A stretch of 64,000 nucleotides of DNA from the NCBI GenBank assembly GCA_965202675.1, contig OZ241842.1, forward strand, positions 2,098,918 through 2,162,917, written 5' to 3'. Each line of letters starts with the position of its first letter. Within the stretch, counting starts at the first letter, position 1. This DNA is from Candidatus Spongiisociaceae bacterium. GTDB lineage: Bacteria > Actinomycetota > Acidimicrobiia > Spongiisociales > Spongiisociaceae. The translations under genes were made by a program, and so were the position numbers. This document shows, piece by piece, positions 6,076 to 40,157 of this stretch. The notes below the pieces were generated by a model that was not told where the DNA came from, did not search any database, and saw nothing but the letters and a program-made list of their open reading frames with translations.

Positions 6076-6365
6076 CAAATCACGGAATGACAAAAAAATC
6101 CGCCGGATCCGCCTACAAGGGTATTGACTATGTCGCACCGATGCTGTATTAATGGAAGAGCTGCAAGCACCTCCGGTCCGCAGCCGGCGCAGACCGGGAC
6201 AGGGATCATCCTCCGAACGCGATCCTCCGGGGTACTGACCGACCGCGTCCGGGAAACAGGTGGTGGTGGCGGGGGCCGGGCCCGCGAAGCGGGGAGCGGC
6301 GGTGGCGTTTTTCGCGTTCTTGCCGGGTCAGGGGAGGTGGGATAGGTGCTTGAACAGGGGGTTCG
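6076..6365 (+). repeat. Dispersed promoter-bearing structured repeat, copy A
   Basis: High visible identity to 42868-44541 (+, interrupted by IS110) and 45826-46219 (-), from CAAATCACGGAATGACAAAAAAATC through CCCGCGAAGCGGG to TTTTTCGCGTTCTTGCC. Confidence 0.92.
6124..6153 (+). promoter_or_regulatory. Sigma70-type promoter within repeat copy A
   Basis: TTGACT-17 bp-TATTAAT with an upstream A7 tract; the equivalent TTGACT-17-GATAAT is in copies B (42916-42944) and C (46144-46172, minus). Confidence 0.7.
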
Positions 6366-6433
6366 CGGGAAAAGGGTTTGGGCTTACGCGGTGGTTTGTG
6401 TCTTTCTCCGTAAATACGACCGGCGGTAGGAAG

Positions 6434-6612
6434 TCAGGCCCTCGGCCTGTTTGATGACCGTATCGGTTGCCTTCTCCTGCTTGTCGGGCAGGTACCCGTG
6501 CTCCGCGGAAGCCTCTTGACCGCGATGCGCCGCCGGGCGCGCACATCTTCGCGCCGGGTCCAGTCGATGCCGGTGTTGTAGCGCACCGTCTCCACCAGCT
6601 CGCGGCGATCAT
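6434..6612 (-). pseudogene. hsdR: 3' remnant of a second type I restriction subunit gene
   Basis: Diverged copy of the last ~180 bp of hsdR (about 8840-9020): [24 protein letters not shown], with frameshifts. Confidence 0.85.
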
Positions 6613-6722
6613 GATCAGTCATCCCGCAGGTTTTCCCAATTGCTCTCATAATCAGGCACCTCGGTTCTACTCATGATGGATAATACCTCTAGCCAGCTGC
6701 CAATCAAGAGACGCATTCTATA

Positions 6723-6801
6723 CATGCTTGTACTCGGCGGCGTCCATGGTCCTCCGCAGGCTGTCCGCCATCTTCCAAAGCTCAATCTCATACCCCGTGA
6801 T
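6723..6801 (-). pseudogene. hsdM: 5' remnant of a second type I methyltransferase gene
   Basis: Near-identical to about 17004-17082 ([16 protein letters not shown]...DAAEYKH); same position directly after a DUF4276-like gene. Confidence 0.85.
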
Positions 6802-7409
6802 TAGCTTTCATTGTTTGACCTAGTCTGTTGATCTAACTGCTCAAGAAATCGTTTGGCGTATGGAGATGCCTGCTTGATCTTATCCGGGTTGAGAGTTGCT
6901 AGAATATTAAAGCTGTGTGAGCCTTTGCTGTAAGAGCCCTTCTTGGTATTACGAGTTGCTTGACGGAGTTTATCCAGGACATCATCTTTAGGCACTATCT
7001 CGACATTATTGTATTGCGGTATTGCATCTGCCCGAAAACCTTGACCGTAGTATTCCTGCAATGCTTCTTTGTCGGCTAGAAACCATGATTCCATTATCAG
7101 CACCATCATATGGCATTGTTCCTCGGTGGCATTGCTGGGCTTTGACCATCCATCCCGCTTGTTCAAATGTTGCCAAGGTTTATCTCCTGCTTTGATCGAA
7201 TCTTCGGCATCCACAAGCAAAATACAAAGTTTGTTATCCTCATGAGCAGTTTTGAATTTGTCATAAGCATTATCACGGCTGCCGCAAGCCATTATTCTTG
7301 GCATTCTCTCTTCAAATCCTGCCCTTTTTATGAACTCTGTAAAACCCTTACGGCATTTTGGTTTGAGTGAACCTTCGCCGCCTCCTTCCACATATATTGT
7401 GATGCTCAC
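6801..7409 (-). CDS. DUF4276-like TOPRIM-fold protein (copy 1)
   Basis: ITIYVEGGG N-terminal acidic strand, ACGSRDNAY, LLVDAE, MESWFLADKEAL, YSKGSHSF; GTGA overlap with the upstream ATPase; AT-rich. Confidence 0.8.
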   Translation of the reverse strand: MSITIYVEGGGEGSLKPKCRKGFTEFIKRAGFEERMPRIMACGSRDNAYDKFKTAHEDNKLCILLVDAEDSIKAGDKPWQHLNKRDGWSKPSNATEEQCHMMVLIMESWFLADKEALQEYYGQGFRADAIPQYNNVEIVPKDDVLDKLRQATRNTKKGSYSKGSHSFNILATLNPDKIKQASPYAKRFLEQLDQQTRSNNES

Positions 7410-8698
7410 CAGCGATTCCCTCCCAACTCACCAGTTGTCCAGAGATCACCTAGGCGATATTCTTTAAGCCAAGGCTCAAGTTCCTTTTTGTTGAGCCTAC
7501 GAAGTTGTGTACCAGTTTCAGGTTTTTCACAAACTATAATTGATTCTGGGATATCGGTTAGAGAATCCACAAGTATTTCAGAATGAGTTGTAACTATTAT
7601 CTGACTATGCTCGGATGCTTCTATAAGTAGATCTGCCATCTCACAAATTATATCTGGGTGCAATCCGGTTTCGGGTTCCTCTAAGCAAATAATTGATGAA
7701 GGCTCAGGATTACATAACACCGTTAGTAGACATAGATAACGTAAAGTTCCATCAGATAGCCTGTTAGATGATATCGGATGATCTAATCCTTCTTCATGAA
7801 ATTGTAATTGGACGGTACCATCTCTCAGTCTAGAGACAATATCCAGGACATGTGGATAAAAGGATCGTATGTGGGTCATGATCTTTTGCTTTATCAGGGG
7901 TCGGGTAAATAGATCGTTCAAAACCAGGCCAAGGTTAGAAGCATCTTCTAGTAGGAAATTTTGTGTTTGGTCTGTTGATTGTGGGGAGCGTATTGGACCG
8001 CCTCTAGATAAATCCCATTCCCGATAAAATCTGATTCCTTTAAATCTATCTCCCAGATATGTTAATTCTGGATATGCATCTGGATTACGGAGTTGCTCTA
8101 AAATAGATTGCTCAGGAATAACCTCTATTCTTTGTAGACCTCTTTGAGGTGGCGACTGTAGGAATCGTTGAGTATCCTGGGTTAGAAAAGTTAGAGAAGG
8201 ATCCTGGGTTAGAGGGGGAGCTTGATCTCTTATCTCTTCCATAGGTACATCAAGTACAGGTTGACCATTCTGAAAGCTGTAATATGGATAAGGCTCAGTA
8301 TATCCTGTGAAGGGCACTGCTGTTTCTATTGCTTCATCTACAAGTGTAAATCTTTGTTCATATTCTTGAAATGTTAGCCGGTACCTGATGTCCAGTCTTC
8401 CTAGTTGTGGGTGTTTGGTAGTAACTTCTATGGTAGCTGGAGAGGTTGACTCGACTCCTTTCCAAAGCCATTCTCGTGTCCCGCCGCCTAAGCGTATAGG
8501 CTCGAGTATATCTCTAGGCGTAGCGGCAAGAAGAGACAAAGCCTCAATAAGGTTTGACTTACCGGAGGCATTTGGTCCTATTAGGACATTAAGAGGTTGC
8601 AGTTCGAATTCAGGAGTTTCAGGACCGTAGGAAAGGATATTATTCAGGCGGACTGTTCGGATGAAGTGTTTCTTCATCCATTTCTGCTCCTGTCCCAT
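7406..8698 (-). CDS. ABC-type (AAA_21-like) ATPase (copy 1)
   Basis: Walker A GPNASGKSN, signature LSDGTLRYLCLL, Walker B CLEEPETGLHP, H-loop IVTTHS; true start may be 8677. Confidence 0.9.
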   Translation of the reverse strand: MGQEQKWMKKHFIRTVRLNNILSYGPETPEFELQPLNVLIGPNASGKSNLIEALSLLAATPRDILEPIRLGGGTREWLWKGVESTSPATIEVTTKHPQLGRLDIRYRLTFQEYEQRFTLVDEAIETAVPFTGYTEPYPYYSFQNGQPVLDVPMEEIRDQAPPLTQDPSLTFLTQDTQRFLQSPPQRGLQRIEVIPEQSILEQLRNPDAYPELTYLGDRFKGIRFYREWDLSRGGPIRSPQSTDQTQNFLLEDASNLGLVLNDLFTRPLIKQKIMTHIRSFYPHVLDIVSRLRDGTVQLQFHEEGLDHPISSNRLSDGTLRYLCLLTVLCNPEPSSIICLEEPETGLHPDIICEMADLLIEASEHSQIIVTTHSEILVDSLTDIPESIIVCEKPETGTQLRRLNKKELEPWLKEYRLGDLWTTGELGGNRW

Positions 8699-33912: not shown

Positions 33913-33989
33913 CGGGCAGTGGCGCAGCTTGGCAGCGCGCTTCGTTCGGGACGAAGAGGTCGCGGGTTCAAATCCCGCCTGCCCGACCA
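33913..33989 (+). tRNA. tRNA-Pro (anticodon CGG)
   Basis: Acceptor stem CGGGCAG/CTGCCCG, D arm GCGCAGCTTGGCAGCGC, anticodon arm CTTCG-TTCGGGA-CGAAG, T loop GGTTCAAATCC, encoded CCA. Confidence 0.97.
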
Positions 33990-34040
33990 ACACCCTCGCA
34001 ACATCCCCGCAGGAGCATAGGGCAAGCGCGGCGGCGGGTG

Positions 34041-35084
34041 TCAGACGACGCGGAGGCGGGTCCCGCCGCTCAGAAACGGGTTGTCGGATTTATCGGCGGC
34101 GTACCCCGATATCGCCGCTATTTCGGACTCGGTGAGGCCGCGGTCGAGCATGGCTCGGCCGATGTCCGATACCAGACGGGGTTTTTCCGGTGCCAGCTCA
34201 TCGCTGACCGGTTCATGGGTGCGCCAACCCAGGGCGCTGAACCTCTTGTACAGGTTGGTTCGTTGTTTGGCGGCGACCACTCCCAGGTGATATCCCCTTT
34301 CGATCAGCGCCTGCATCGACACCCCCCAGTAGCGCTTGAGATCATGGAGGCGGCCGGTGGTGAGGTTGCGCAGTTGGGGCCGTATCACCTCGGCCGGCAT
34401 CAGGAACTCGGCGGCGAAGGCCGTGGCGTCGGCCTCATAGTCATCCGGGACTCCCTGACCGTGAAGGCACAGGTGCCCCAGCTCGTGCGCGAGCGTCAAT
34501 CTCCGGCGGTCGGTCGGGAGCGCCTGGTTGAGCATCACCACCGGATAGGGGTTGTCCCCCCACTGCGACAGCCCGTCGACGCGCCTGGTGCCGAAGTCGC
34601 TGTCGAATACCAGACAACCTGCTGCTTCCATCCATCCGACCAGGTCGCGCACCGGTCCGGCCGGCAGCCGCCACTGGGCCCGCAGCAGGCGGGCCGCCGC
34701 GGCGGGGTAGACATCAAAGGGGTCAAACCAGGGGAGGGTCAGCTCGGCCTGCAGGTCTACCTCGTCCAATAGGTGTGCGGAATGGAGTCGATGGAGGTTG
34801 AGTTGGGCCTCGAGACGGCGCCATACGGTCGGACGGGCTGTCGCTCGTCGCCGCATGTGAGCGCCGCCGGCGAGTGCGCCCTCCATCCGCTTCGCTTTGC
34901 GCAGTAGCTCCGCTGTTACCCCCAACGCCGTTGCGATTTCTTCCAGCATGAGGTCGGTCGGCTCGCACAGGTCGTTCTCATGACGGGACAGAGCCGCCTG
35001 CGTTATACCCAGCCGCCCGGCGAGATCTTTCTGGGTCAGGCCGCCGGCCCGCCGCGCCGTGGCTATGGCCTCTCCCAGGCTCAC
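34041..35084 (-). CDS. Xre-HTH fused to ImmA/IrrE-family metallopeptidase
   Basis: N-terminal HTH (GLTQKDLAGRLGITQAALSRHEND), LAHELGH (HExxH), EADATAFAAEFLMP. Confidence 0.93.
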   Translation of the reverse strand: MSLGEAIATARRAGGLTQKDLAGRLGITQAALSRHENDLCEPTDLMLEEIATALGVTAELLRKAKRMEGALAGGAHMRRRATARPTVWRRLEAQLNLHRLHSAHLLDEVDLQAELTLPWFDPFDVYPAAAARLLRAQWRLPAGPVRDLVGWMEAAGCLVFDSDFGTRRVDGLSQWGDNPYPVVMLNQALPTDRRRLTLAHELGHLCLHGQGVPDDYEADATAFAAEFLMPAEVIRPQLRNLTTGRLHDLKRYWGVSMQALIERGYHLGVVAAKQRTNLYKRFSALGWRTHEPVSDELAPEKPRLVSDIGRAMLDRGLTESEIAAISGYAADKSDNPFLSGGTRLRVV

Positions 35085-35449
35085 CGTTGCCCTGCGGCAG
35101 ACGAGTCGGTGTCGTCATAGGGCAGTTTCACCTGGGGTCGGGCGGGCAGGGATGGGCCTTTAATGTCCACTACATCAAGGGAAGAAATGGATTCCTCCAG
35201 TTCGATGAGCCATATCACATTGTTCGCGCCGTCGCGAGTGTTTACGAGCGTCCGATTATGGAGTACCCACCCCGATTCCGTGGATACCTCTACCCCTCTC
35301 AGCCCGCACTCCCCCCTCAGTCCCGAAGAGCACATTAGTTCTCCGCTGAGCGGCAAGCCTGCGGTTGAGTCGCTCAACACCAGCGAGGTCCGTAGTAGGA
35401 TGGTCGACACGGTAAAGGATGTCTTAACCGAACACCCATGTGATAGCAA
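35081..35449 (-). pseudogene. Degenerate or truncated partner gene upstream of Xre-ImmA
   Basis: C-terminal TRDGANNVIWLIEL...PARPQVKL resembles partners I recall upstream of actinobacterial Xre-ImmA genes; the N-terminal part looks out of frame; GTGA overlap with Xre-ImmA. Confidence 0.45.
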
Positions 35450-36062
35450 GTAACATAGTTCCTATGAGAAGGAACATTATTGCTATCCGGAAAATAGCAG
35501 ACCGGGTTACTAAGGTATTTTCACCTGGTATAACATATTCTAAATAAGCTTGTGCTACTGCTAGTTTACGGGGAGGCTCGACATTACTAAGGAGTGTTAT
35601 ATCGATGGTTCCAAGCAGGTTTTTGGCCGCTACATTCGATGCAACTCCTAGAGCACCTATAAACAGGAACAAGATGGCAGAAATCAACAAAATGGTCCAA
35701 ATAATGGCGTTGTTGGATTCTGATTGGAGGATATCACTGAGGCGATTGACGGCAAAGAGTAATGCACCGAGAGCAGTGGTGAGTAAAAATTGGCTGCGGG
35801 TCTGAAGGTCTGTGAGTTGATTGCGTTGTCGTTCGAGTTGATACTTTCCTTGTTCGATCAGTAGTTCCAGCTCATCATGATCCCAACTTGCAAGGTCGCT
35901 GTGCTCTGTCGTTTGGGCATATTTCACAAACTGTGGAGTCATGCCAGGTCTAATAAGAGCTAAGCAATGATTAATGTACAATATAATACTGAGCTTAATA
36001 ATACTGAGCTTAATCCCTGTTAGCTCCTTCTTTGATCGTATATCATTCATGGCTATTTCCAT
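35424..36062 (-). CDS. Multi-TM membrane protein, Pycsar-effector-like architecture
   Basis: Helix QLERQRNQLTDLQTRSQFLL followed by hydrophobic segments, a loop and a C-terminal TM (FRIAIMFLLIGTMLLAITWVFG); AT-rich; overlaps both neighbours. Confidence 0.7.
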   Translation of the reverse strand: MEIAMNDIRSKKELTGIKLSIIKLSIILYINHCLALIRPGMTPQFVKYAQTTEHSDLASWDHDELELLIEQGKYQLERQRNQLTDLQTRSQFLLTTALGALLFAVNRLSDILQSESNNAIIWTILLISAILFLFIGALGVASNVAAKNLLGTIDITLLSNVEPPRKLAVAQAYLEYVIPGENTLVTRSAIFRIAIMFLLIGTMLLAITWVFG

Positions 36063-36972
36063 TCAACCATTCCGCGATCGCAACAGTGATTTCATGGGAC
36101 CGTTCGCCGAGGAACAACCATTGACCGCCCGGGTTAATATCAACAACCCAGGTAGTGTTACTGTCATCTATCCAGTCCTGGCTAGAGTATCCAACAGCTA
36201 ATTCTCTAGCAAGAGAAACTGCTAGTTTTTCTATTTCCATAGACTTAGTCCAGCGGAAATTGCTATGGGCATCGTTTAGGAAGCGCCAATCTATAGGCTC
36301 ACCTTCCACAACGGCGCGACTGAAACACCAGGACCGATCCCCAACCGTCACGACGCGCAGATGCCGAACAGCCTCAACACGATGTTGATATAGGAAGGGT
36401 TCAGGTTGAAGCTCAATATCAATTAGCTGAGACACATCGCTGGTGGGAGTCGAAACATAATCACTATCCGACAAAAAGCTAGACGGACCTATCGGTTTTG
36501 CTATTAGCTGGTCTGTTCCCAGGATTTCAGCCGCGATGGTTGGAGAACAAGCCAAAGCCGTCTCGGGACTCGCGGCGCCAACAGCCTGCGCCGCCTTCTT
36601 GAGCAACAACTTATTCTCCGCGATAAGGAGTCGATCAAGGTCGGTGAGCCAATCCACACTACTCGTACGTATGAAAGAAACGAGCATTGCCAGCCAATTC
36701 GCCTGTTGGTAAGCGCGACGGGTATGCGCTTCTGTTCCGAGCATCCATCCTGGAGGGGCCAATCGTCGGATCCAGCCGCGGCCCAACCCGCGTATGGACA
36801 TCCAACCATTCCGGCGTTTATGCAACGGTCCATCTACCGATAGAGCTAAGGAGTTGGTCTGCAGGGACTGGACATCAACCACCAACGGGCCGCTCACAAG
36901 GCTCGCTACTGCTGAGAAATGTGGGTCATCGGGCGCGCCGATGAGTACGCACCTCTGCCCTCTGTCATCCAC
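36043..36972 (-). CDS. ATP-grasp ligase, graspetide-synthetase (MvdC/MvdD-like) type
   Basis: AENKLLLKKAA, LIAKPIG, PFLYQHRVEAVRHLRVVTVGD, IDWR, DINPGGQWLFL; the GTG start overlaps the precursor stop by 1 nt (TAGTG). Confidence 0.85.
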   Translation of the reverse strand: MDDRGQRCVLIGAPDDPHFSAVASLVSGPLVVDVQSLQTNSLALSVDGPLHKRRNGWMSIRGLGRGWIRRLAPPGWMLGTEAHTRRAYQQANWLAMLVSFIRTSSVDWLTDLDRLLIAENKLLLKKAAQAVGAASPETALACSPTIAAEILGTDQLIAKPIGPSSFLSDSDYVSTPTSDVSQLIDIELQPEPFLYQHRVEAVRHLRVVTVGDRSWCFSRAVVEGEPIDWRFLNDAHSNFRWTKSMEIEKLAVSLARELAVGYSSQDWIDDSNTTWVVDINPGGQWLFLGERSHEITVAIAEWLNGNSHE

Positions 36973-37142
36973 TACGCGGGAGGAAGCACACCCAAGAACC
37001 ACATCAGGCGGTCATTGTCAATCGTTTCTATGGCGCGGGTCTCGAGGGTGCCTGGGCTTGGGATCGGCTTGGGGTCGGCTTCGCGAGGGGAGCGGACTCC
37101 TATGAGGTCGGTCAACCGCTGGACTCTGTCGCTATTAGGCAT
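36972..37142 (-). CDS. Putative graspetide (RiPP) precursor peptide, 56 aa
   Basis: AAAAGGAG RBS; MPNSDRVQRLTDLIGVRSPREADPKPIPSPGTLETRAIETIDNDRLMWFLGVLPPA; T-x-E-T-R-x-x-E-T-x-D-x-D core; directly upstream of the ATP-grasp gene. Confidence 0.78.
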   Translation of the reverse strand: MPNSDRVQRLTDLIGVRSPREADPKPIPSPGTLETRAIETIDNDRLMWFLGVLPPA

Positions 37143-37168
37143 GTCGCTCCTTTTCACGGTGCCAGGAT

Positions 37169-37177
37169 ATATTACCA
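37169..37177 (-). promoter_or_regulatory. Extended -10 promoter for the peptide/ATP-grasp operon
   Basis: TGGTAATAT (TGn plus TAATAT) about 27 bp upstream of the precursor ATG. Confidence 0.5.
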
Positions 37178-37302
37178 CAACGGACGCGGCATTGGGACAT
37201 ACACGGTGTCGGAGCTTGACAAAACTATCAGTATCCTTCTGGTAGAACGCGCAGTAGAATGAGGGCAAAGCGCGCGATAGAGTGTCGGGAGGGGTAGCTT
37301 TG

Positions 37303-38541
37303 ATGCGGGATCGTCATCTGGAGCGGGTGATCCGCGATGCGCTGGGTTCATTCCGGGTGGTGATGATCCAGGGCGCCCGCCAGACGGGCAAGACCACCCT
37401 GGCTCGGCGGATAGGCTCGTCCGGGACCTTCCTCGGGCTCGACGACGACGGGCTGTTACAGGCAGCCCGCGACGATCCGATCGGGCTCCTGGCCGAGATT
37501 CCCAGGCCCGTGGTGATAGACGAGGTGCAGCGGGCGGGCGACTCCTTGGTGCGAGCGATCAAGATGGCCGTGGACAGGGATCCGAAGCCGGGGGGATTCC
37601 TGCTGACCGGATCGGCCGACTTTCTGACCGTTCCCGTTATCAGCGAGTCCCTGGCCGGCCGGGTGGCGATATTCGAGCTGCACCCTTTCTCACAGGGCGA
37701 GGTCGAGGGCCGTGAGGAGGGGTTGCTGGGTCGGTTGTTCCGGGAGCCCGATTCCCTGCGGTCTGTTTCGGCTTCCGCATTGCCCGCCTCGGAATACGCC
37801 CGCCGCGTCTGTACGGGCGGGTACCCCGAGCCTCTGGAAATGGATGACCGCAACCGCCGCCGATGGTTCGACGCCTATGTGAACACGAGCGTTTCCCGCG
37901 ACGTGGCCGAGATCACGGGGGCGCGCCGAACCCGGGAGATGCCCCGGCTTCTCCGGTCGCTGGCCGCCCGCACCGCCAATGAACTGGTGGTGAGTGCGGT
38001 CCACAACGATATCGGCTTGGGCAGCATCAACACTACTTCCGACTACCTCGCCTACCTGGAGATGATCCGCCTCGTTGCGCTGCTGCCCGCCTGGTCCGCC
38101 AATCTGGGCGCCCGTGTGAAGCGCCGTCCCAAGGTCTACACATCAGACACCGGGCTCGCCGCTTCCCTCCTCGGAAAAGACCCGGTGGCGCTGGCCAGAC
38201 CCACCGACCGGGCCCGCGGCCAGATGTTCGAGACCTTTGCCGTCAACGAGCTGCGCCGTCAGGCGGGCTGGTCGGACCTCGGGGTGGACTTCTTCCATTA
38301 CCGGGACCGCAACGGCAGGGAGATCGACCTCGTTTGCGAAGCGCCCGACGGACGGGTCGCCGCCGTCGAGGTGAAGGCCTCCGCCACCGTCCGGCCCGGT
38401 CACGCCGCCCATATCGCCTGGTTGAGGGACAGGCTCGGCGACCGATTTACGGCGGGGGCGGTTTTCTACACCGGTTCCCTGTCACTGCCCCTCGGCGACC
38501 GAATCTCGGCGCTGCCTTTATCGGCTCTCTGGGAGGCGTAG
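37303..38541 (+). CDS. AAA_14 plus DUF4143 ATP-binding protein
   Basis: QGARQTGKTT, VIDEVQR, FLLTGSA, GGYPE, KRRPKVYTSDTGL, YRDRNGREIDLV...EVKAS. Confidence 0.9.
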   Translation: MRDRHLERVIRDALGSFRVVMIQGARQTGKTTLARRIGSSGTFLGLDDDGLLQAARDDPIGLLAEIPRPVVIDEVQRAGDSLVRAIKMAVDRDPKPGGFLLTGSADFLTVPVISESLAGRVAIFELHPFSQGEVEGREEGLLGRLFREPDSLRSVSASALPASEYARRVCTGGYPEPLEMDDRNRRRWFDAYVNTSVSRDVAEITGARRTREMPRLLRSLAARTANELVVSAVHNDIGLGSINTTSDYLAYLEMIRLVALLPAWSANLGARVKRRPKVYTSDTGLAASLLGKDPVALARPTDRARGQMFETFAVNELRRQAGWSDLGVDFFHYRDRNGREIDLVCEAPDGRVAAVEVKASATVRPGHAAHIAWLRDRLGDRFTAGAVFYTGSLSLPLGDRISALPLSALWEA

Positions 38542-38585
38542 TCGGTCACGATGAACCTGCCGACAGCGTTGGCCCGACCCGACTT

Positions 38586-40157
38586 CTACCAGCGGGTGCC
38601 TCGGCCGGTTACTTCTTCCACGGGCAGGGCGATGGGGTAGCGGCTGCGGATCCATTCGTCCTGTTCTCGGGTGATGTGGGACGGGAAGTGGTTGCGCATG
38701 ACCTCGGTGACGTGTTTGCGGGCCCGTTCGGCGGCGTTGGATGCGCCCAGGTCTTTCCAGTCGTCGGGGCTGTTGCGGTCGCCGATCACCGGGTACAGGT
38801 ATTCGCTCTGCATGAGCCGGAGGGTCTGCTCGCTGCCCAGGAAGTGGCCCGGTCCGGCGATGGTGTCGCGGATCACCTGAGCCGAGAGGGAGCCTTCGTC
38901 GATGTCCACGCCCCGGATGGTGCGTACCGCGGCGCCCAGCATGTCGTTGTCGATCGCCAGGGCTTCGAGCGAGCAGGCCAGCAGGGAGGCCAGCATCCCC
39001 GCCGACTCGTACACCACGTTGGCGCCCGCCAGGCCGGCCAGGACGGTGGTTATGCCCTTCTCGTAGCCGGCTTGGTTGTCGGGCAGTTTCGAGTCGGCCA
39101 TTCCCGCCGCCACCCCGGAGGGAAGGCCCAGCCAGTTGACCACCTGGGCGGCGGCGGCGTTGAGCACCGCCGCCTCGCCCGACCCGCCGCTCATGGCCCC
39201 GGTGCGCAGGTCCGACACGAACGGCCACAACCCCATCACGCACGGATGCCCGGGGCTGATCAGGTTGACGCTGGTGAGGCCGGCCAGGCATTCGGCCAGG
39301 GCTTGGACCAGCGACCCCCCCAAGGCGGCGGGCGAGGTGGCCCCGGCCTGCCCCGCCGACAGCAGGTTGATGGGCATCCCCGTGTGGATCTGGGCCGCCA
39401 TGCACTCGGCGGATTCGTAGGCGAAGCGGAGGGGCGGCACCACGAAGGTGTTGTTGGCGCAGGCGAAGGGCCGCCGCCGGAACTCGCCCTTCCCGCCCAG
39501 CACATGGTCGTACATATCCACCACCTCGTGGACGTGTTCGGGCCGGAAGAAGGAGGTCCCCTGGGGTTTGTCGGTGCCCATCATCACCGCATAGGCCGTG
39601 TTGATGTCAACCTCGCGGGAGGATTCCACGTCCCTGGTAACCACGGTGCGCATGAAGATGTGGATGTGCTCCAGCGTGTCGACCAGGCGGGCCGCGTCGT
39701 AGAGGTCGGCGGTGGTGGAGGGGCGGAACTCCCGGCTGCCGCAGTCCAGCATCAGCACCGCCGCCCCCGCCGTGCTGTAGTGGACCCTGCGGTCGGACAG
39801 CTCGAGGCTCTTGTCCTCGTCCAGGCCGTGCCACACCCACGACTTGGCGGCGGTGCTCTCGATCACCCGCTCCACCACCGCCCGGGGATAATGAAGCCGC
39901 CCGCCGTCGTCCATGCGCCCCCCGGCCCCGGTTACCGCCTTGACGAACTCGGGGATCGGGTCGCCCATCCCCACCTCGTCGATCAGCTCCAGGGCGGTGT
40001 CGTACACCCGCTGCATGTCGGACTCGGTGAGGGGGGCGAAGGCGCCGCCCTCCAGACCCGGGCGGACGGCGCGCTCGCCGGGCGCGGGGCCCGCCGCCCG
40101 GGCCGCCACCCTGGCGGCCCGCCCTCCGGCGCGTCTCCGGCGGGTCGCGTCAGCCAT
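38586..40157 (-). CDS. Trimethylamine methyltransferase family protein (MttB superfamily, no pyrrolysine)
   Basis: PLRF...P...SAGQAGATSPAALGGSLVQALAE, SDLRTGAMSGGSGE, YESAGMLASLL, GPGHFLG; no in-frame TAG. Confidence 0.92.
   Translation of the reverse strand: MADATRRRRAGGRAARVAARAAGPAPGERAVRPGLEGGAFAPLTESDMQRVYDTALELIDEVGMGDPIPEFVKAVTGAGGRMDDGGRLHYPRAVVERVIESTAAKSWVWHGLDEDKSLELSDRRVHYSTAGAAVLMLDCGSREFRPSTTADLYDAARLVDTLEHIHIFMRTVVTRDVESSREVDINTAYAVMMGTDKPQGTSFFRPEHVHEVVDMYDHVLGGKGEFRRRPFACANNTFVVPPLRFAYESAECMAAQIHTGMPINLLSAGQAGATSPAALGGSLVQALAECLAGLTSVNLISPGHPCVMGLWPFVSDLRTGAMSGGSGEAAVLNAAAAQVVNWLGLPSGVAAGMADSKLPDNQAGYEKGITTVLAGLAGANVVYESAGMLASLLACSLEALAIDNDMLGAAVRTIRGVDIDEGSLSAQVIRDTIAGPGHFLGSEQTLRLMQSEYLYPVIGDRNSPDDWKDLGASNAAERARKHVTEVMRNHFPSHITREQDEWIRSRYPIALPVEEVTGRGTRW

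What the first reader, a model, noticed from the sequence alone, without database searches (positions are those of the whole stretch)
35424..37177. Graspetide-like RiPP cassette (56-aa precursor plus ATP-grasp ligase) with no transporter or protease, in the tRNA-Pro island
Seen: an extended -10 promoter, a strong RBS and a 56-aa ORF containing GTLETRAIETIDND. Its stop overlaps the GTG start of a 309-aa ATP-grasp protein with graspetide-synthetase motifs (AENK, KP, Q..V...LRV, DWR, NP.GQW). The usual metal-binding EIN is DIN here, and there is no microviridin PFFARFL leader. Established: graspetide ligases form Thr/Ser-Asp/Glu esters in such cores. Inference: an uncharacterised graspetide class. 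The core is followed by a hydrophobic tail, and there is no exporter or leader peptidase, which points to an intracellular role rather than a secreted inhibitor.
Basis: partly seen in the sequence, partly recalled or inferred. Interest (0 to 1): 0.85.

Follow-up and report, generated by a model that had tools for sequence, protein, structure and literature searches.

The report
Mobile graspetide cassette with membrane partner

Summary
On the minus strand lie a 56-aa precursor (36972-37142), an ATP-grasp ligase (36043-36972) and a third, overlapping gene (35424-36062) for a 212-aa three-helix membrane protein.

The ligase groups with graspetide synthetases, not RimK. This holds by profile (AMdnB 2e-34, MdnC 1e-29, RimK 2.5e-3) and by fold (the 28 best PDB matches).

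Relatives occur in at least 231 species genomes, almost all Actinomycetota.
- 67 of 83 loci have upstream peptides with the core TxxTxxxETxDxD, usually followed by an 11-15 residue tail.
- 79 of 83 loci have the same membrane protein directly downstream.

[quoted passage not shown] None of the three proteins reaches a curated model. I did not find the family in the held, truncated parts of two graspetide censuses.

The cassette lies in a 4.6-kb island at tRNA-Pro that two same-genus genomes lack. At least 35 of 254 neighbouring ORFs across the family match anti-phage models.

"No transporter, hence intracellular" is not supported as argued. A defence role is open but unproven.

The parts
37143..37190 (-). 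Upstream expression signals of the cassette: AAGGAG Shine-Dalgarno 5 nt before the ATG, and a TGGTAATAT extended -10-like element
   Evidence: Read directly. The strict -35/-10 scan finds nothing here, so promoter function is inferred only.
36972..37142 (-). Precursor peptide gene (56 aa). Leader has RLTDLI; core is T32-x2-T35-x3-E39-T40-x-D42-x-D44; a 12-residue tail RLMWFLGVLPPA follows.
   Evidence: Translation. Orthologous peptides in L001, L003, L004, L006 and L007. Family-wide consensus T..T...ET.D.D from 97 candidate peptides in 61 loci. Synonymous exceeds non-synonymous change against L001 and L004.
36043..36972 (-). ATP-grasp ligase (graspetide synthetase-like), 309 aa from the GTG that overlaps the peptide's TAG by one base. 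The alternative GTG at 37002 gives 319 aa.
   Evidence: NCBIfam TIGR04187 2.6e-20, MvdC 2.8e-13, MvdD 2.7e-8, all below the curated cut-offs. Family profile against PDB: AMdnB 2.4e-34, MdnC 1.3e-29, PruB 3e-22, CdnC 5.6e-20, PsnB 5e-11, RimK 2.5e-3. AF2 pLDDT 87.9, with the top 28 Foldseek hits all graspetide synthetases. Conserved catalytic motifs.
35424..36062 (-). Membrane partner gene (212 aa). It has a cytoplasmic N-terminal helical part, a TM hairpin, a ~45-residue cytoplasmic loop and a third TM helix. Its start overlaps the ligase's last 20 nt.
   Evidence: Homolog directly downstream of the ligase in 79 of 83 loci. No Pfam match. AF2 pLDDT 88.7, all helical. No PDB fold match below E 0.2. 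K+R distribution places the N-terminus and loop 2 inside the cell. 459 clusters at 50% identity in 1.84 billion representatives.
33996..38586 (.). The whole inserted island between tRNA-Pro and the MTTB-family gene. It carries the cassette plus two neighbour genes that are not part of the cassette: an XRE-HTH/M78 peptidase gene (34041-35084, -) and an AAA_14/DUF4143 ATPase gene (37282-38541, +).
   Evidence: Empty site in same-genus genomes G002 and G001. PADLOC RmrA 7.5e-50 and PDC-S01 1.2e-148. L001 has the same backbone and cassette but no XRE/M78 gene.
33913..33989 (+). tRNA-Pro (CGG), the insertion hot spot
   Evidence: ARAGORN and Rfam, 64.8 bits.

Best explanation
This is a horizontally acquired, self-contained three-gene graspetide cassette.

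1. The 56-aa peptide is the substrate. Its leader (RLTDLI here, SLYxxL in most relatives) is bound by the N-terminal domain of the ATP-grasp ligase.
2. The ligase phosphorylates side-chain carboxylates of the core (E39, D42, D44). It joins them to Thr hydroxyls (T32, T35, T40) as omega-ester rings. I expect two to three rings, each costing 18 Da, most likely nested into a hairpin.
3. The co-translated membrane protein has both of its soluble parts facing the cytoplasm. I infer that it takes the modified peptide, probably by its conserved hydrophobic tail, and passes it through or anchors it at the membrane.
4. Like every characterised graspetide, the product most likely blocks a protease in some microbial conflict.

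Shown here: gene content, coupling, conservation, the ligase's family and fold, and mobility.
Inferred: ring chemistry and number, tail-to-partner contact, export, and target.

My confidence in the chemistry is about 0.75. My confidence in the export or anchor role of the partner is about 0.4.
For: - Ligase family. It groups with graspetide synthetases by sequence and fold, and its ATP-binding, Mg-binding and D(W/F)R motifs are conserved. The 'DFR' motif is cited as critical in PMC13097080.
- Precursors. E[TS]x[DE]x[DE] cores are 44 times denser on the coding strand upstream of the ligase than elsewhere in the loci, and occur in 67 of 83 loci. The consensus is T..T...ET.D.D, with tails mostly 11-15 residues.
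- Partner. It is present in 79 of 83 loci, always directly downstream on the same strand.
- Tail-partner link. The four loci that lack the partner (L008, L019, L037, L020) have precursors with only 4-6 residue tails.
- Topology. The K+R distribution gives N-terminus in and loop 2 in.
- Precedent. [quoted passage not shown] Makarova et al. proposed peptide transport for the thuringinin-locus membrane protein (PMC8939145).
- Mobility. There is a GC drop, an empty site in same-genus genomes, the cassette is absent from relatives, and it sits in different contexts in L001-L005.
Against: - No chemistry has been measured for any member of this family.
- A 3-TM protein with no ATPase and no known fold is not a recognisable exporter.
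- There is no leader peptidase.
- The short-tail/no-partner correlation covers only four loci (three Streptomyces, one Frankia), which may share a single loss event.
- None of the three proteins reaches a curated family threshold.
- The genomic company is anti-phage rather than biosynthetic.
Confidence: 0.6

Rival explanations
1. The trio is itself an anti-phage or anti-mobile-element module, a graspetide counterpart of lanthiphages. One version: the cross-linked peptide acts inside the cell, for example on a phage protease. Another version: the peptide controls the membrane protein, which would then be a membrane-damaging effector. The chemistry is the same as in the best explanation; the role and the job of the partner differ.
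For: - In this window the cassette sits in a 4.6-kb island with two PADLOC-matching genes.
- Across the family, at least 35 of 254 ORFs within two genes of the cassette match PADLOC models at 1e-10. They include ThsA/B/C, LmuA/B, DpdA/B, PifA, DrmB, dGTPase, RM genes, an RT and PDC candidates. Many integrase, relaxase and transposase genes are also present.
- L004 and L005 lie among SNF2, AAA_15/21, Fic, MazG and DUF1156 genes.
- A similarly built Rhizobium plasmid cassette lies between ABC-3C and AbiE.
- The only PADLOC hits of the partner family are to PycTM and CBASS 2TM effectors.
- Lanthiphages show that a RiPP cluster family in actinobacterial defence islands can protect against phage (10.1101/2024.06.26.600839).
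- There are 1-4 diversified precursor copies per locus.
Against: - Association only; I computed no matched background rate.
- The loci are phylogenetically related; the Thoeris-linked ones, for example, are one group.
- PycTM and 2TM hits are faint (best E 0.0016; P0003 itself 0.33) and could be due to composition.
- The ligase and the peptide match no PADLOC model.
- Mobile islands also carry bacteriocins and other cargo.
- No phage assay exists for any member.
Confidence: 0.25
2. The membrane protein is neither exporter nor effector. It is an obligatory partner or scaffold of the ligase, holding it at the membrane or presenting the substrate, as MirC does for the rosaritide ligase MirB.
For: - Gene overlap and 95% co-occurrence.
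- Both soluble parts of the partner face the cytoplasm, where the ligase works.
- Partner-dependent graspetide synthesis has been demonstrated (PMC13097080).
- A membrane-protein scaffold is proposed for microviridin, according to a title in the reference list seen.
Against: - According to the literature as I recall it, plesiocin and thuringinin ligases modify their substrates without their membrane proteins.
- Four loci of this family do without the partner.
- The partner has no resemblance to MirC.
Confidence: 0.15
3. Peptide, ligase, membrane protein and the XRE/M78 (ImmA-like) gene form one operon, a peptide-signalled system.
For: All four genes are co-oriented on the minus strand. L005 also has HTH and M78 genes nearby.
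Against: - There is a 339-bp gap between the genes.
- GC differs: about 0.65 for the XRE/M78 gene against 0.43-0.58 for the cassette.
- L001 shares an 84-88%-identical cassette and a near-identical flanking backbone, yet lacks the XRE/M78 gene entirely.
- It is not a recurrent neighbour across 80 loci.
Confidence: 0.04
4. The ATP-grasp is a RimK/GshB-type amidoligase unrelated to ring formation, and the small ORF is incidental.
For: Some database names for relatives read 'glutathione synthase/RimK-type ligase-like' or 'RimK-like protein'.
Against: - Profile E-values are 2.4e-34 to 5e-11 for graspetide synthetases against 2.5e-3 for RimK.
- Fold ranking puts the graspetide synthetases first.
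- The small ORF is conserved with a fixed Thr/Glu/Asp pattern.
Confidence: 0.03

Closest known systems
Thuringinin (group 3) and plesiocin (group 2) graspetide clusters: precursor, single ATP-grasp (TgnB / PsnB), membrane protein of unknown function
   Same: - The same three-gene layout, with no protease, no ABC exporter and no tailoring enzyme (10.1101/2021.05.19.444834).
- Thr donors and Glu/Asp acceptors in a compact core.
- Some relatives of this family also have tandem-repeat cores (L060, L063, L072, L074, L076).
- Group 3 clusters likewise co-occur with mobile-element genes (PMC13097080 Table S4).
- PsnB is a fold and profile match.
   Different: - The ligase is only distantly related (PsnB 5e-11 by profile).
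- The hosts are Actinomycetota.
- Here there is a single core followed by a conserved 11-15 residue hydrophobic tail.
- Homology of the membrane proteins was not tested, because I had no TgnC or PsnC sequence.
- A proteobacterial analogue I could test aligns only weakly (hhalign probability 43%, E 2.4e-4).
Microviridin ligases MdnC/MdnB and AMdnB, CdnC, and PruB (prunipeptin, PDB 9bou)
   Same: These are the best sequence and structure matches of the ligase. The AENK, KP, D(F/W)R and (D/E)xNPxG(Q/E)W motifs are shared.
   Different: - There is no PFFARFL leader, no TxKxPSD core, no second ligase, no GNAT and no ABC transporter.
- The precursor matches none of PF12559 or PF14404-PF14409.
- NCBIfam scores are far below the cut-offs (72.8 against 350).
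Graspimiditides (group 13; TIGR04187 ligase, TIGR04186 precursor, TIGR04188 methyltransferase)
   Same: The best NCBIfam hit of the ligase is TIGR04187. The hosts are actinobacterial.
   Different: The score is a fifth of the cut-off. There is no methyltransferase gene in the island, and the precursor does not match.
Lanthiphages (class I lanthipeptide clusters of Actinobacteria with anti-phage function)
   Same: A RiPP cluster family of Actinobacteria that sits in defence islands (10.1101/2024.06.26.600839).
   Different: The chemistry and enzymes differ. Protection has been shown for lanthiphages and not tested here.
Rosaritide MirB-MirC (partner-protein-dependent graspetide synthesis)
   Same: An actinobacterial graspetide ligase with a strictly co-occurring non-enzymatic partner (PMC13097080).
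   Different: MirC is a soluble SurA-like protein, not a 3-TM protein. There is no sequence relation.

Membership tests
Graspetide (omega-ester/amide RiPP) cluster, class level | ATP-grasp ligase of the MdnB/MdnC/PsnB clade rather than RimK/GshB | tested here: met
   Profile against PDB: 2.4e-34 to 5e-11 for six graspetide synthetases, 2.5e-3 for RimK. The top 28 Foldseek hits are graspetide synthetases. NCBIfam hits are to TIGR04187, TIGR04185 and TIGR04184.
Graspetide (omega-ester/amide RiPP) cluster, class level | Adjacent co-oriented short precursor with conserved donor (Thr/Ser/Lys) and acceptor (Asp/Glu) residues in a C-terminal core, plus a conserved leader | tested here: met
   Core T..T...ET.D.D in 97 peptides from 61 loci. 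Core motif enriched 44-fold upstream of the ligase. Leader SLYxxL or RLTDLI.
Graspetide (omega-ester/amide RiPP) cluster, class level | Intact ATP-binding, Mg-binding and D(F/W)R catalytic motifs | tested here: met
   K169, Q206, D238-W239-R240 and D288-x-N290 are invariant or nearly so in 20 family members.
Graspetide (omega-ester/amide RiPP) cluster, class level | Side-chain macrolactone or macrolactam rings in the product | not testable with these tools
   Needs mass spectrometry of the co-expressed peptide.
Microviridin (group 1) | PFFARFL leader, TxKxPSD core matching PF12559, two ligases, GNAT and ABC transporter | tested here: not met
   No Pfam or NCBIfam hit for the peptide. There is one ligase and no GNAT or ABC gene in the island.
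Graspimiditide (group 13, TIGR04187 system) | Ligase above the TIGR04187 cut-off, TIGR04186 precursor, TIGR04188 O-methyltransferase | tested here: not met
   72.8 bits against a cut-off of 350. The peptide has no hit, and no methyltransferase gene is present.
Thuringinin/plesiocin-type three-gene cluster | Precursor, single ligase and membrane protein of unknown function as the whole cluster | tested here: met
   Layout in the window and in 79 of 83 related loci.
Thuringinin/plesiocin-type three-gene cluster | Sequence homology of ligase and membrane protein to TgnB/PsnB and their membrane partners (same SSN group) | tested here: inconclusive
   PsnB matches at 5e-11 by profile, so it is the same superfamily but clearly another group. 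No thuringinin or plesiocin membrane-protein sequence was on hand. A proteobacterial analogue gives hhalign probability 43%.
Known anti-phage defence system (PADLOC v2) | Component proteins match a defence-system model | tested here: not met
   No hit for the peptide or the ligase. P0003 against PycTM gives E 0.33. Across 35 partner proteins there are only faint PycTM and 2TM hits, best 0.0016.
Known anti-phage defence system (PADLOC v2) | Habitual location in defence islands | tested here: met
   At least 35 of 254 flanking ORFs hit PADLOC at 1e-10. This covers the window island, L004/L005 and L087. No matched background was computed.

The most novel reading that the evidence does not exclude
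The precursor, ATP-grasp and 3-TM trio is a stand-alone anti-phage (or anti-mobile-element) system of Actinomycetota. A ribosomal peptide, knotted by the ligase, would either inhibit a phage protein inside the cell or gate the membrane partner. The conserved tail would be the handle that couples the peptide to that partner. Similar trios from other graspetide groups sit in mobile or defence contexts in other phyla. That comes from earlier notes of this scan and from Table S4 of PMC13097080. If the reading holds, it would make membrane-partnered graspetide cassettes a general immune module rather than natural-product clusters.
Probability: 0.25. Interest if true: 0.85.

Novelty: new member of a known kind. 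Interest (0 to 1): 0.5.

Why it matters
Graspetides are studied as secreted protease inhibitors. Yet the membrane protein that accompanies the plesiocin- and thuringinin-type clusters has never been given a function.

This family offers a clean test case, for four reasons:
- It is large, with at least 231 species genomes carrying the ligase and 459 partner clusters at 50% identity.
- It is strictly three-gene.
- It has culturable Streptomyces, Micromonospora, Nocardioides and Microbacterium members.
- It shows a possible peptide-tail-to-partner dependency.

Its steady company of Thoeris, Lamassu, Dpd, DISARM, RM and TA genes makes the question 'are these cassettes immune modules?' directly testable. 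A positive answer would add a second RiPP class, after lanthiphages, to bacterial immunity.

If the answer is no, it remains an ordinary new graspetide group with an unusual follower tail.

Tried and rejected
- Pfam, NCBIfam and PADLOC on all three proteins. Only sub-threshold ligase hits were found, and nothing for the peptide or the partner.
- Foldseek of the partner model against the PDB. Nothing below E 0.2. The NINJ1 match (probability 0.93, TM-score 0.29/0.55) is too weak to use.
- Placing the family in the published graspetide groups:
  - Ramesh 2021 (PMC8688276) is not held.
  - Representative precursors of the new groups whose legends I could read (25, 27-29, 34-39) in PMC13097080 do not resemble this one.
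  - The strings ETIDND, ETVDND, ETLDND, ETVDGD, ETLDGD and ETTDGD are absent from the held supplements of PMC8939145 and PMC13097080. Those files are truncated, so absence is not proven.
  - A full-text search for the motif strings found nothing.
- tblastn of the ligase against plasmids. It did not reach the enterobacterial or Bacillus group 3 clusters. Only one family member (a Streptomyces plasmid) and distant ligases were found.
- I wanted the PsnB sequence from PDB alignments, to fetch the plesiocin locus. PsnB never ranked among the five printed alignments, so I dropped this.
- The one-operon-with-Xre/ImmA idea was rejected on L001.
- Fusion proteins of the partner family (P0277, P0286) gave no informative domain.
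- Direct repeats flanking the island: none convincing.
- One literature search was badly chosen and returned noise.
Full report
WHAT IS THERE

All features lie on the minus strand.

- A 56-aa ORF (36972-37142) reads MPNSDRVQRLTDLIGVRSPREADPKPIPSPGTLETRAIETIDNDRLMWFLGVLPPA.
- It is preceded by AAGGAG, 5 nt before the ATG, and by a TGGTAATAT extended -10-like element (read). The strict -35/-10 scan finds nothing there.
- Its TAG shares one base with a GTG that opens a 309-aa ATP-grasp gene. The longest ORF, from GTG 37002, is 319 aa.
- Homologs are called at 305-309 aa. Residues 1-13 of the long form have pLDDT below 50. I therefore take 36043-36972 as the gene.
- A third gene (35424-36062) starts 20 nt before the ligase stop. 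It encodes a 212-aa membrane protein.

THE LIGASE

- Pfam finds nothing.
- NCBIfam gives TIGR04187 (2.6e-20, 72.8 bits against a cut-off of 350), MvdC (2.8e-13) and MvdD (2.7e-8).
- A profile of 20 family members hits PDB chains as follows: AMdnB 2.4e-34, MdnC 1.3e-29, MdnB 1.3e-23, PruB (9bou) 3e-22, CdnC 5.6e-20 and PsnB 5e-11. RimK scores 2.5e-3.
- The AF2 model has pLDDT 87.9 and pTM 0.85. Its 28 best Foldseek matches are graspetide synthetases; RimK follows.
- The 'DFR' motif is described as critical for these enzymes (PMC13097080); here it is DWR.
- D in place of E before the Asn is a trait of the whole family.

THE FAMILY AND ITS PEPTIDES

- The word-indexed search gave 377 clusters.
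- A pattern scan of one genome per species found 231 loci, almost all in Actinomycetota. Examples are Streptomyces, Frankia, Micromonospora, Nocardioides, Microbacteriaceae, Solirubrobacterales, Acidimicrobiia and the sponge-associated Candidatus Poriferisocius and Poriferisodalis.
- In 83 fetched loci the motif E[TS]x[DE]x[DE] is 44 times denser on the coding strand in the 760 nt upstream of the ligase than elsewhere. It occurs there in 67 loci, in 1-4 copies. Most of the remaining loci carry near variants such as ETTDEG.
- Ninety-seven candidate precursors anchored on the core give the consensus T..T...ET.D.D. The tail after it is mostly 11-15 residues. The leader is SLYxxL, or RLTDLI in the window's subgroup.
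- Some relatives have tandem-repeat cores.
- The window's peptide and its orthologs differ mainly by synonymous change in the core and tail: 7 against 2 differing codons versus L001, and 11 against 5 versus L004.
- No Pfam or NCBIfam precursor model matches these peptides.

THE THIRD GENE

- An HMM built from the window's protein and its downstream counterparts finds a homolog in 79 of 83 loci. It is always on the ligase strand and directly downstream.
- The four exceptions are three Streptomyces loci and one Frankia locus. Their precursors end only 4-6 residues after the core (ETTDGDPFCL and similar). This is the only hint that the tail and the partner belong together, and it may reflect a single loss event.
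- The partner family has 459 clusters at 50% identity among 1.84 billion representatives. It has no Pfam domain and only 'hypothetical protein' names.
- The AF2 model is confident (pLDDT 88.7) and all helical. One long helix (62-112) runs from a soluble part into TM1. Then come TM2, a ~45-residue loop, and a helix that runs into TM3.
- The distribution of Lys and Arg puts the N-terminal part and the long loop in the cytoplasm.
- No PDB fold match falls below E 0.2.
- Against PADLOC, the only hits among 35 members are faint ones to PycTM and CBASS 2TM effectors (best 0.0016; the window's protein 0.33). I do not count these as evidence of homology.

MOBILITY AND COMPANY

- GC falls to 0.43-0.58 in the cassette, against about 0.70 around it.
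- Two same-genus genomes join the end of tRNA-Pro to the end of the MTTB-family gene, with 12-30 bp between. The window therefore carries a 4.6-kb insertion (33996-38586).
- The island also holds an XRE-HTH/M78 gene (PADLOC RmrA 7.5e-50) and an AAA_14/DUF4143 ATPase (PDC-S01, 1.2e-148).
- A metagenome contig with the same backbone (L001) has the cassette and the ATPase but not the XRE/M78 gene.
- Among 30 relatives, only the window's genome has the cassette.
- Elsewhere the cassette sits next to an ISL3 transposase (L003); SNF2, AAA_15/21 and Fic genes (L004); and HTH, M78, MazG, SNF2 and DUF1156 genes (L005).
- I scanned 254 ORFs within two genes of the cassette in 80 loci. At least 35 hit PADLOC models at 1e-10. 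These include ThsA, ThsB, ThsC, LmuA/B, DpdA/B, PifA, DrmB, dGTPase, RM enzymes, an RT and several PDC candidates.
- Pfam adds integrases, TrwC relaxases, transposases, ArdC, RES and SIR2 domains.
- I computed no matched background, and many of the loci are related. The enrichment is therefore qualitative.
- On a Rhizobium plasmid, a similarly built trio (62-aa peptide, 'RimK-like' ligase, 227-aa membrane protein) lies between an ABC-3C system and AbiE. Its membrane protein aligns with the actinobacterial profile only weakly: 19.5 bits by HMM, and hhalign probability 43% with E 2.4e-4.

COMPARISON WITH WHAT IS KNOWN

- The layout of precursor, single ligase and membrane protein of unknown function is that of the plesiocin and thuringinin clusters (10.1101/2021.05.19.444834).
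- Makarova et al. noted an uncharacterised membrane protein specific to thuringinin loci. They guessed peptide transport, because those loci lack known exporters (PMC8939145).
- Carter et al. list 43 graspetide groups. Groups 3, 4 and 10 co-occur with integrase, conjugation and AAA_15/PcrA genes, and group 5 with His-Xaa-Ser system genes (PMC13097080 Table S4). The same paper shows that a graspetide ligase can depend on a partner protein.
- I could not assign this family to a numbered group; see 'tried and rejected'.
- Lanthiphages are the precedent for a RiPP family in actinobacterial defence islands that protects against phage.
- Earlier notes of this scan describe comparable trios in other genomes. 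They agree with this reading but are not independent evidence.

VERDICT

- The cassette is a genuine, intact, mobile graspetide unit of a family that has no curated description. Its architecture, however, is already known.
- The most likely mechanism is ring formation on the TxxTxxxETxDxD core, followed by handling of the peptide at the membrane by the partner.
- A defence role is a live alternative, at about one in four.

Noticed in passing
window 35983-36012: A perfect 15-bp tandem duplication (ATAATACTGAGCTTA twice) lies inside the membrane-partner gene. It adds five residues in frame (IKLSIIKLSII, against IKLSII in the 85%-identical L001 protein) to the N-terminal helix.
   Followed up: partly
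window 34041-35084 (-): An XRE-HTH plus M78 peptidase fusion gene (PADLOC RmrA 7.5e-50; NCBIfam spr1629-family repressor/antitoxin) sits between tRNA-Pro and the cassette. It is absent from the otherwise collinear L001, so it is a second, nested insertion at the same tRNA.
   Followed up: partly
window 37282-38541 (+): An AAA_14/DUF4143 ATPase matches the PADLOC candidate PDC-S01 at 1.2e-148. It belongs to the same 4.6-kb insertion and accompanies the cassette in L001 too. One further family locus also has a PDC-S01 neighbour.
   Followed up: no
L044, L045, L049, L050, L053, L054, L084 (about 6100-7500 in each locus): In these loci (Leucobacter, Gulosibacter, Rarobacter, Actinotalea, Microbacterium and an uncultured Microbacteriaceae MAG), two conserved reverse-strand ORFs of 283 and 169 aa lie about 500 bp downstream of the cassette. 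The pooled scans of all flanking ORFs count Thoeris ThsA-Macro and ThsB-TIR matches that I attribute to these ORFs. The cassette and these genes appear to travel together.
   Followed up: no
L087 3525-5343; L094 2818-4741: Rhizobiales plasmids carry a similarly built trio with a Lys-containing core (...TTKKNDLETGEDQKGE). In L087 it lies between an ABC-3C system and AbiEi/AbiEii. Its ligase is annotated only as 'RimK-like protein'.
   Followed up: partly
L008, L019, L037, L020; L086 4156-4704: The clade without the membrane partner has short-tailed precursors. On the one plasmid locus I read (L086), a 182-aa glycine-rich gene lies just upstream of the precursor. Two of the pooled flanking ORFs in the first batch match Pfam EcsC. 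This may be a replacement partner.
   Followed up: no
L005 / L006 (Candidatus Poriferisocius chromosome): There are two precursor copies upstream of the ligase, and only the distal one was called by the gene caller. Neighbours are HTH, M78 peptidase, papain-like peptidase C1, MazG, an SNF2 helicase and DUF1156.
   Followed up: no
L003 4700-5003: The precursor ORF was not called in the public gene calls, and an ISL3 transposase lies directly upstream. Small precursors of this family are probably under-annotated in general.
   Followed up: no
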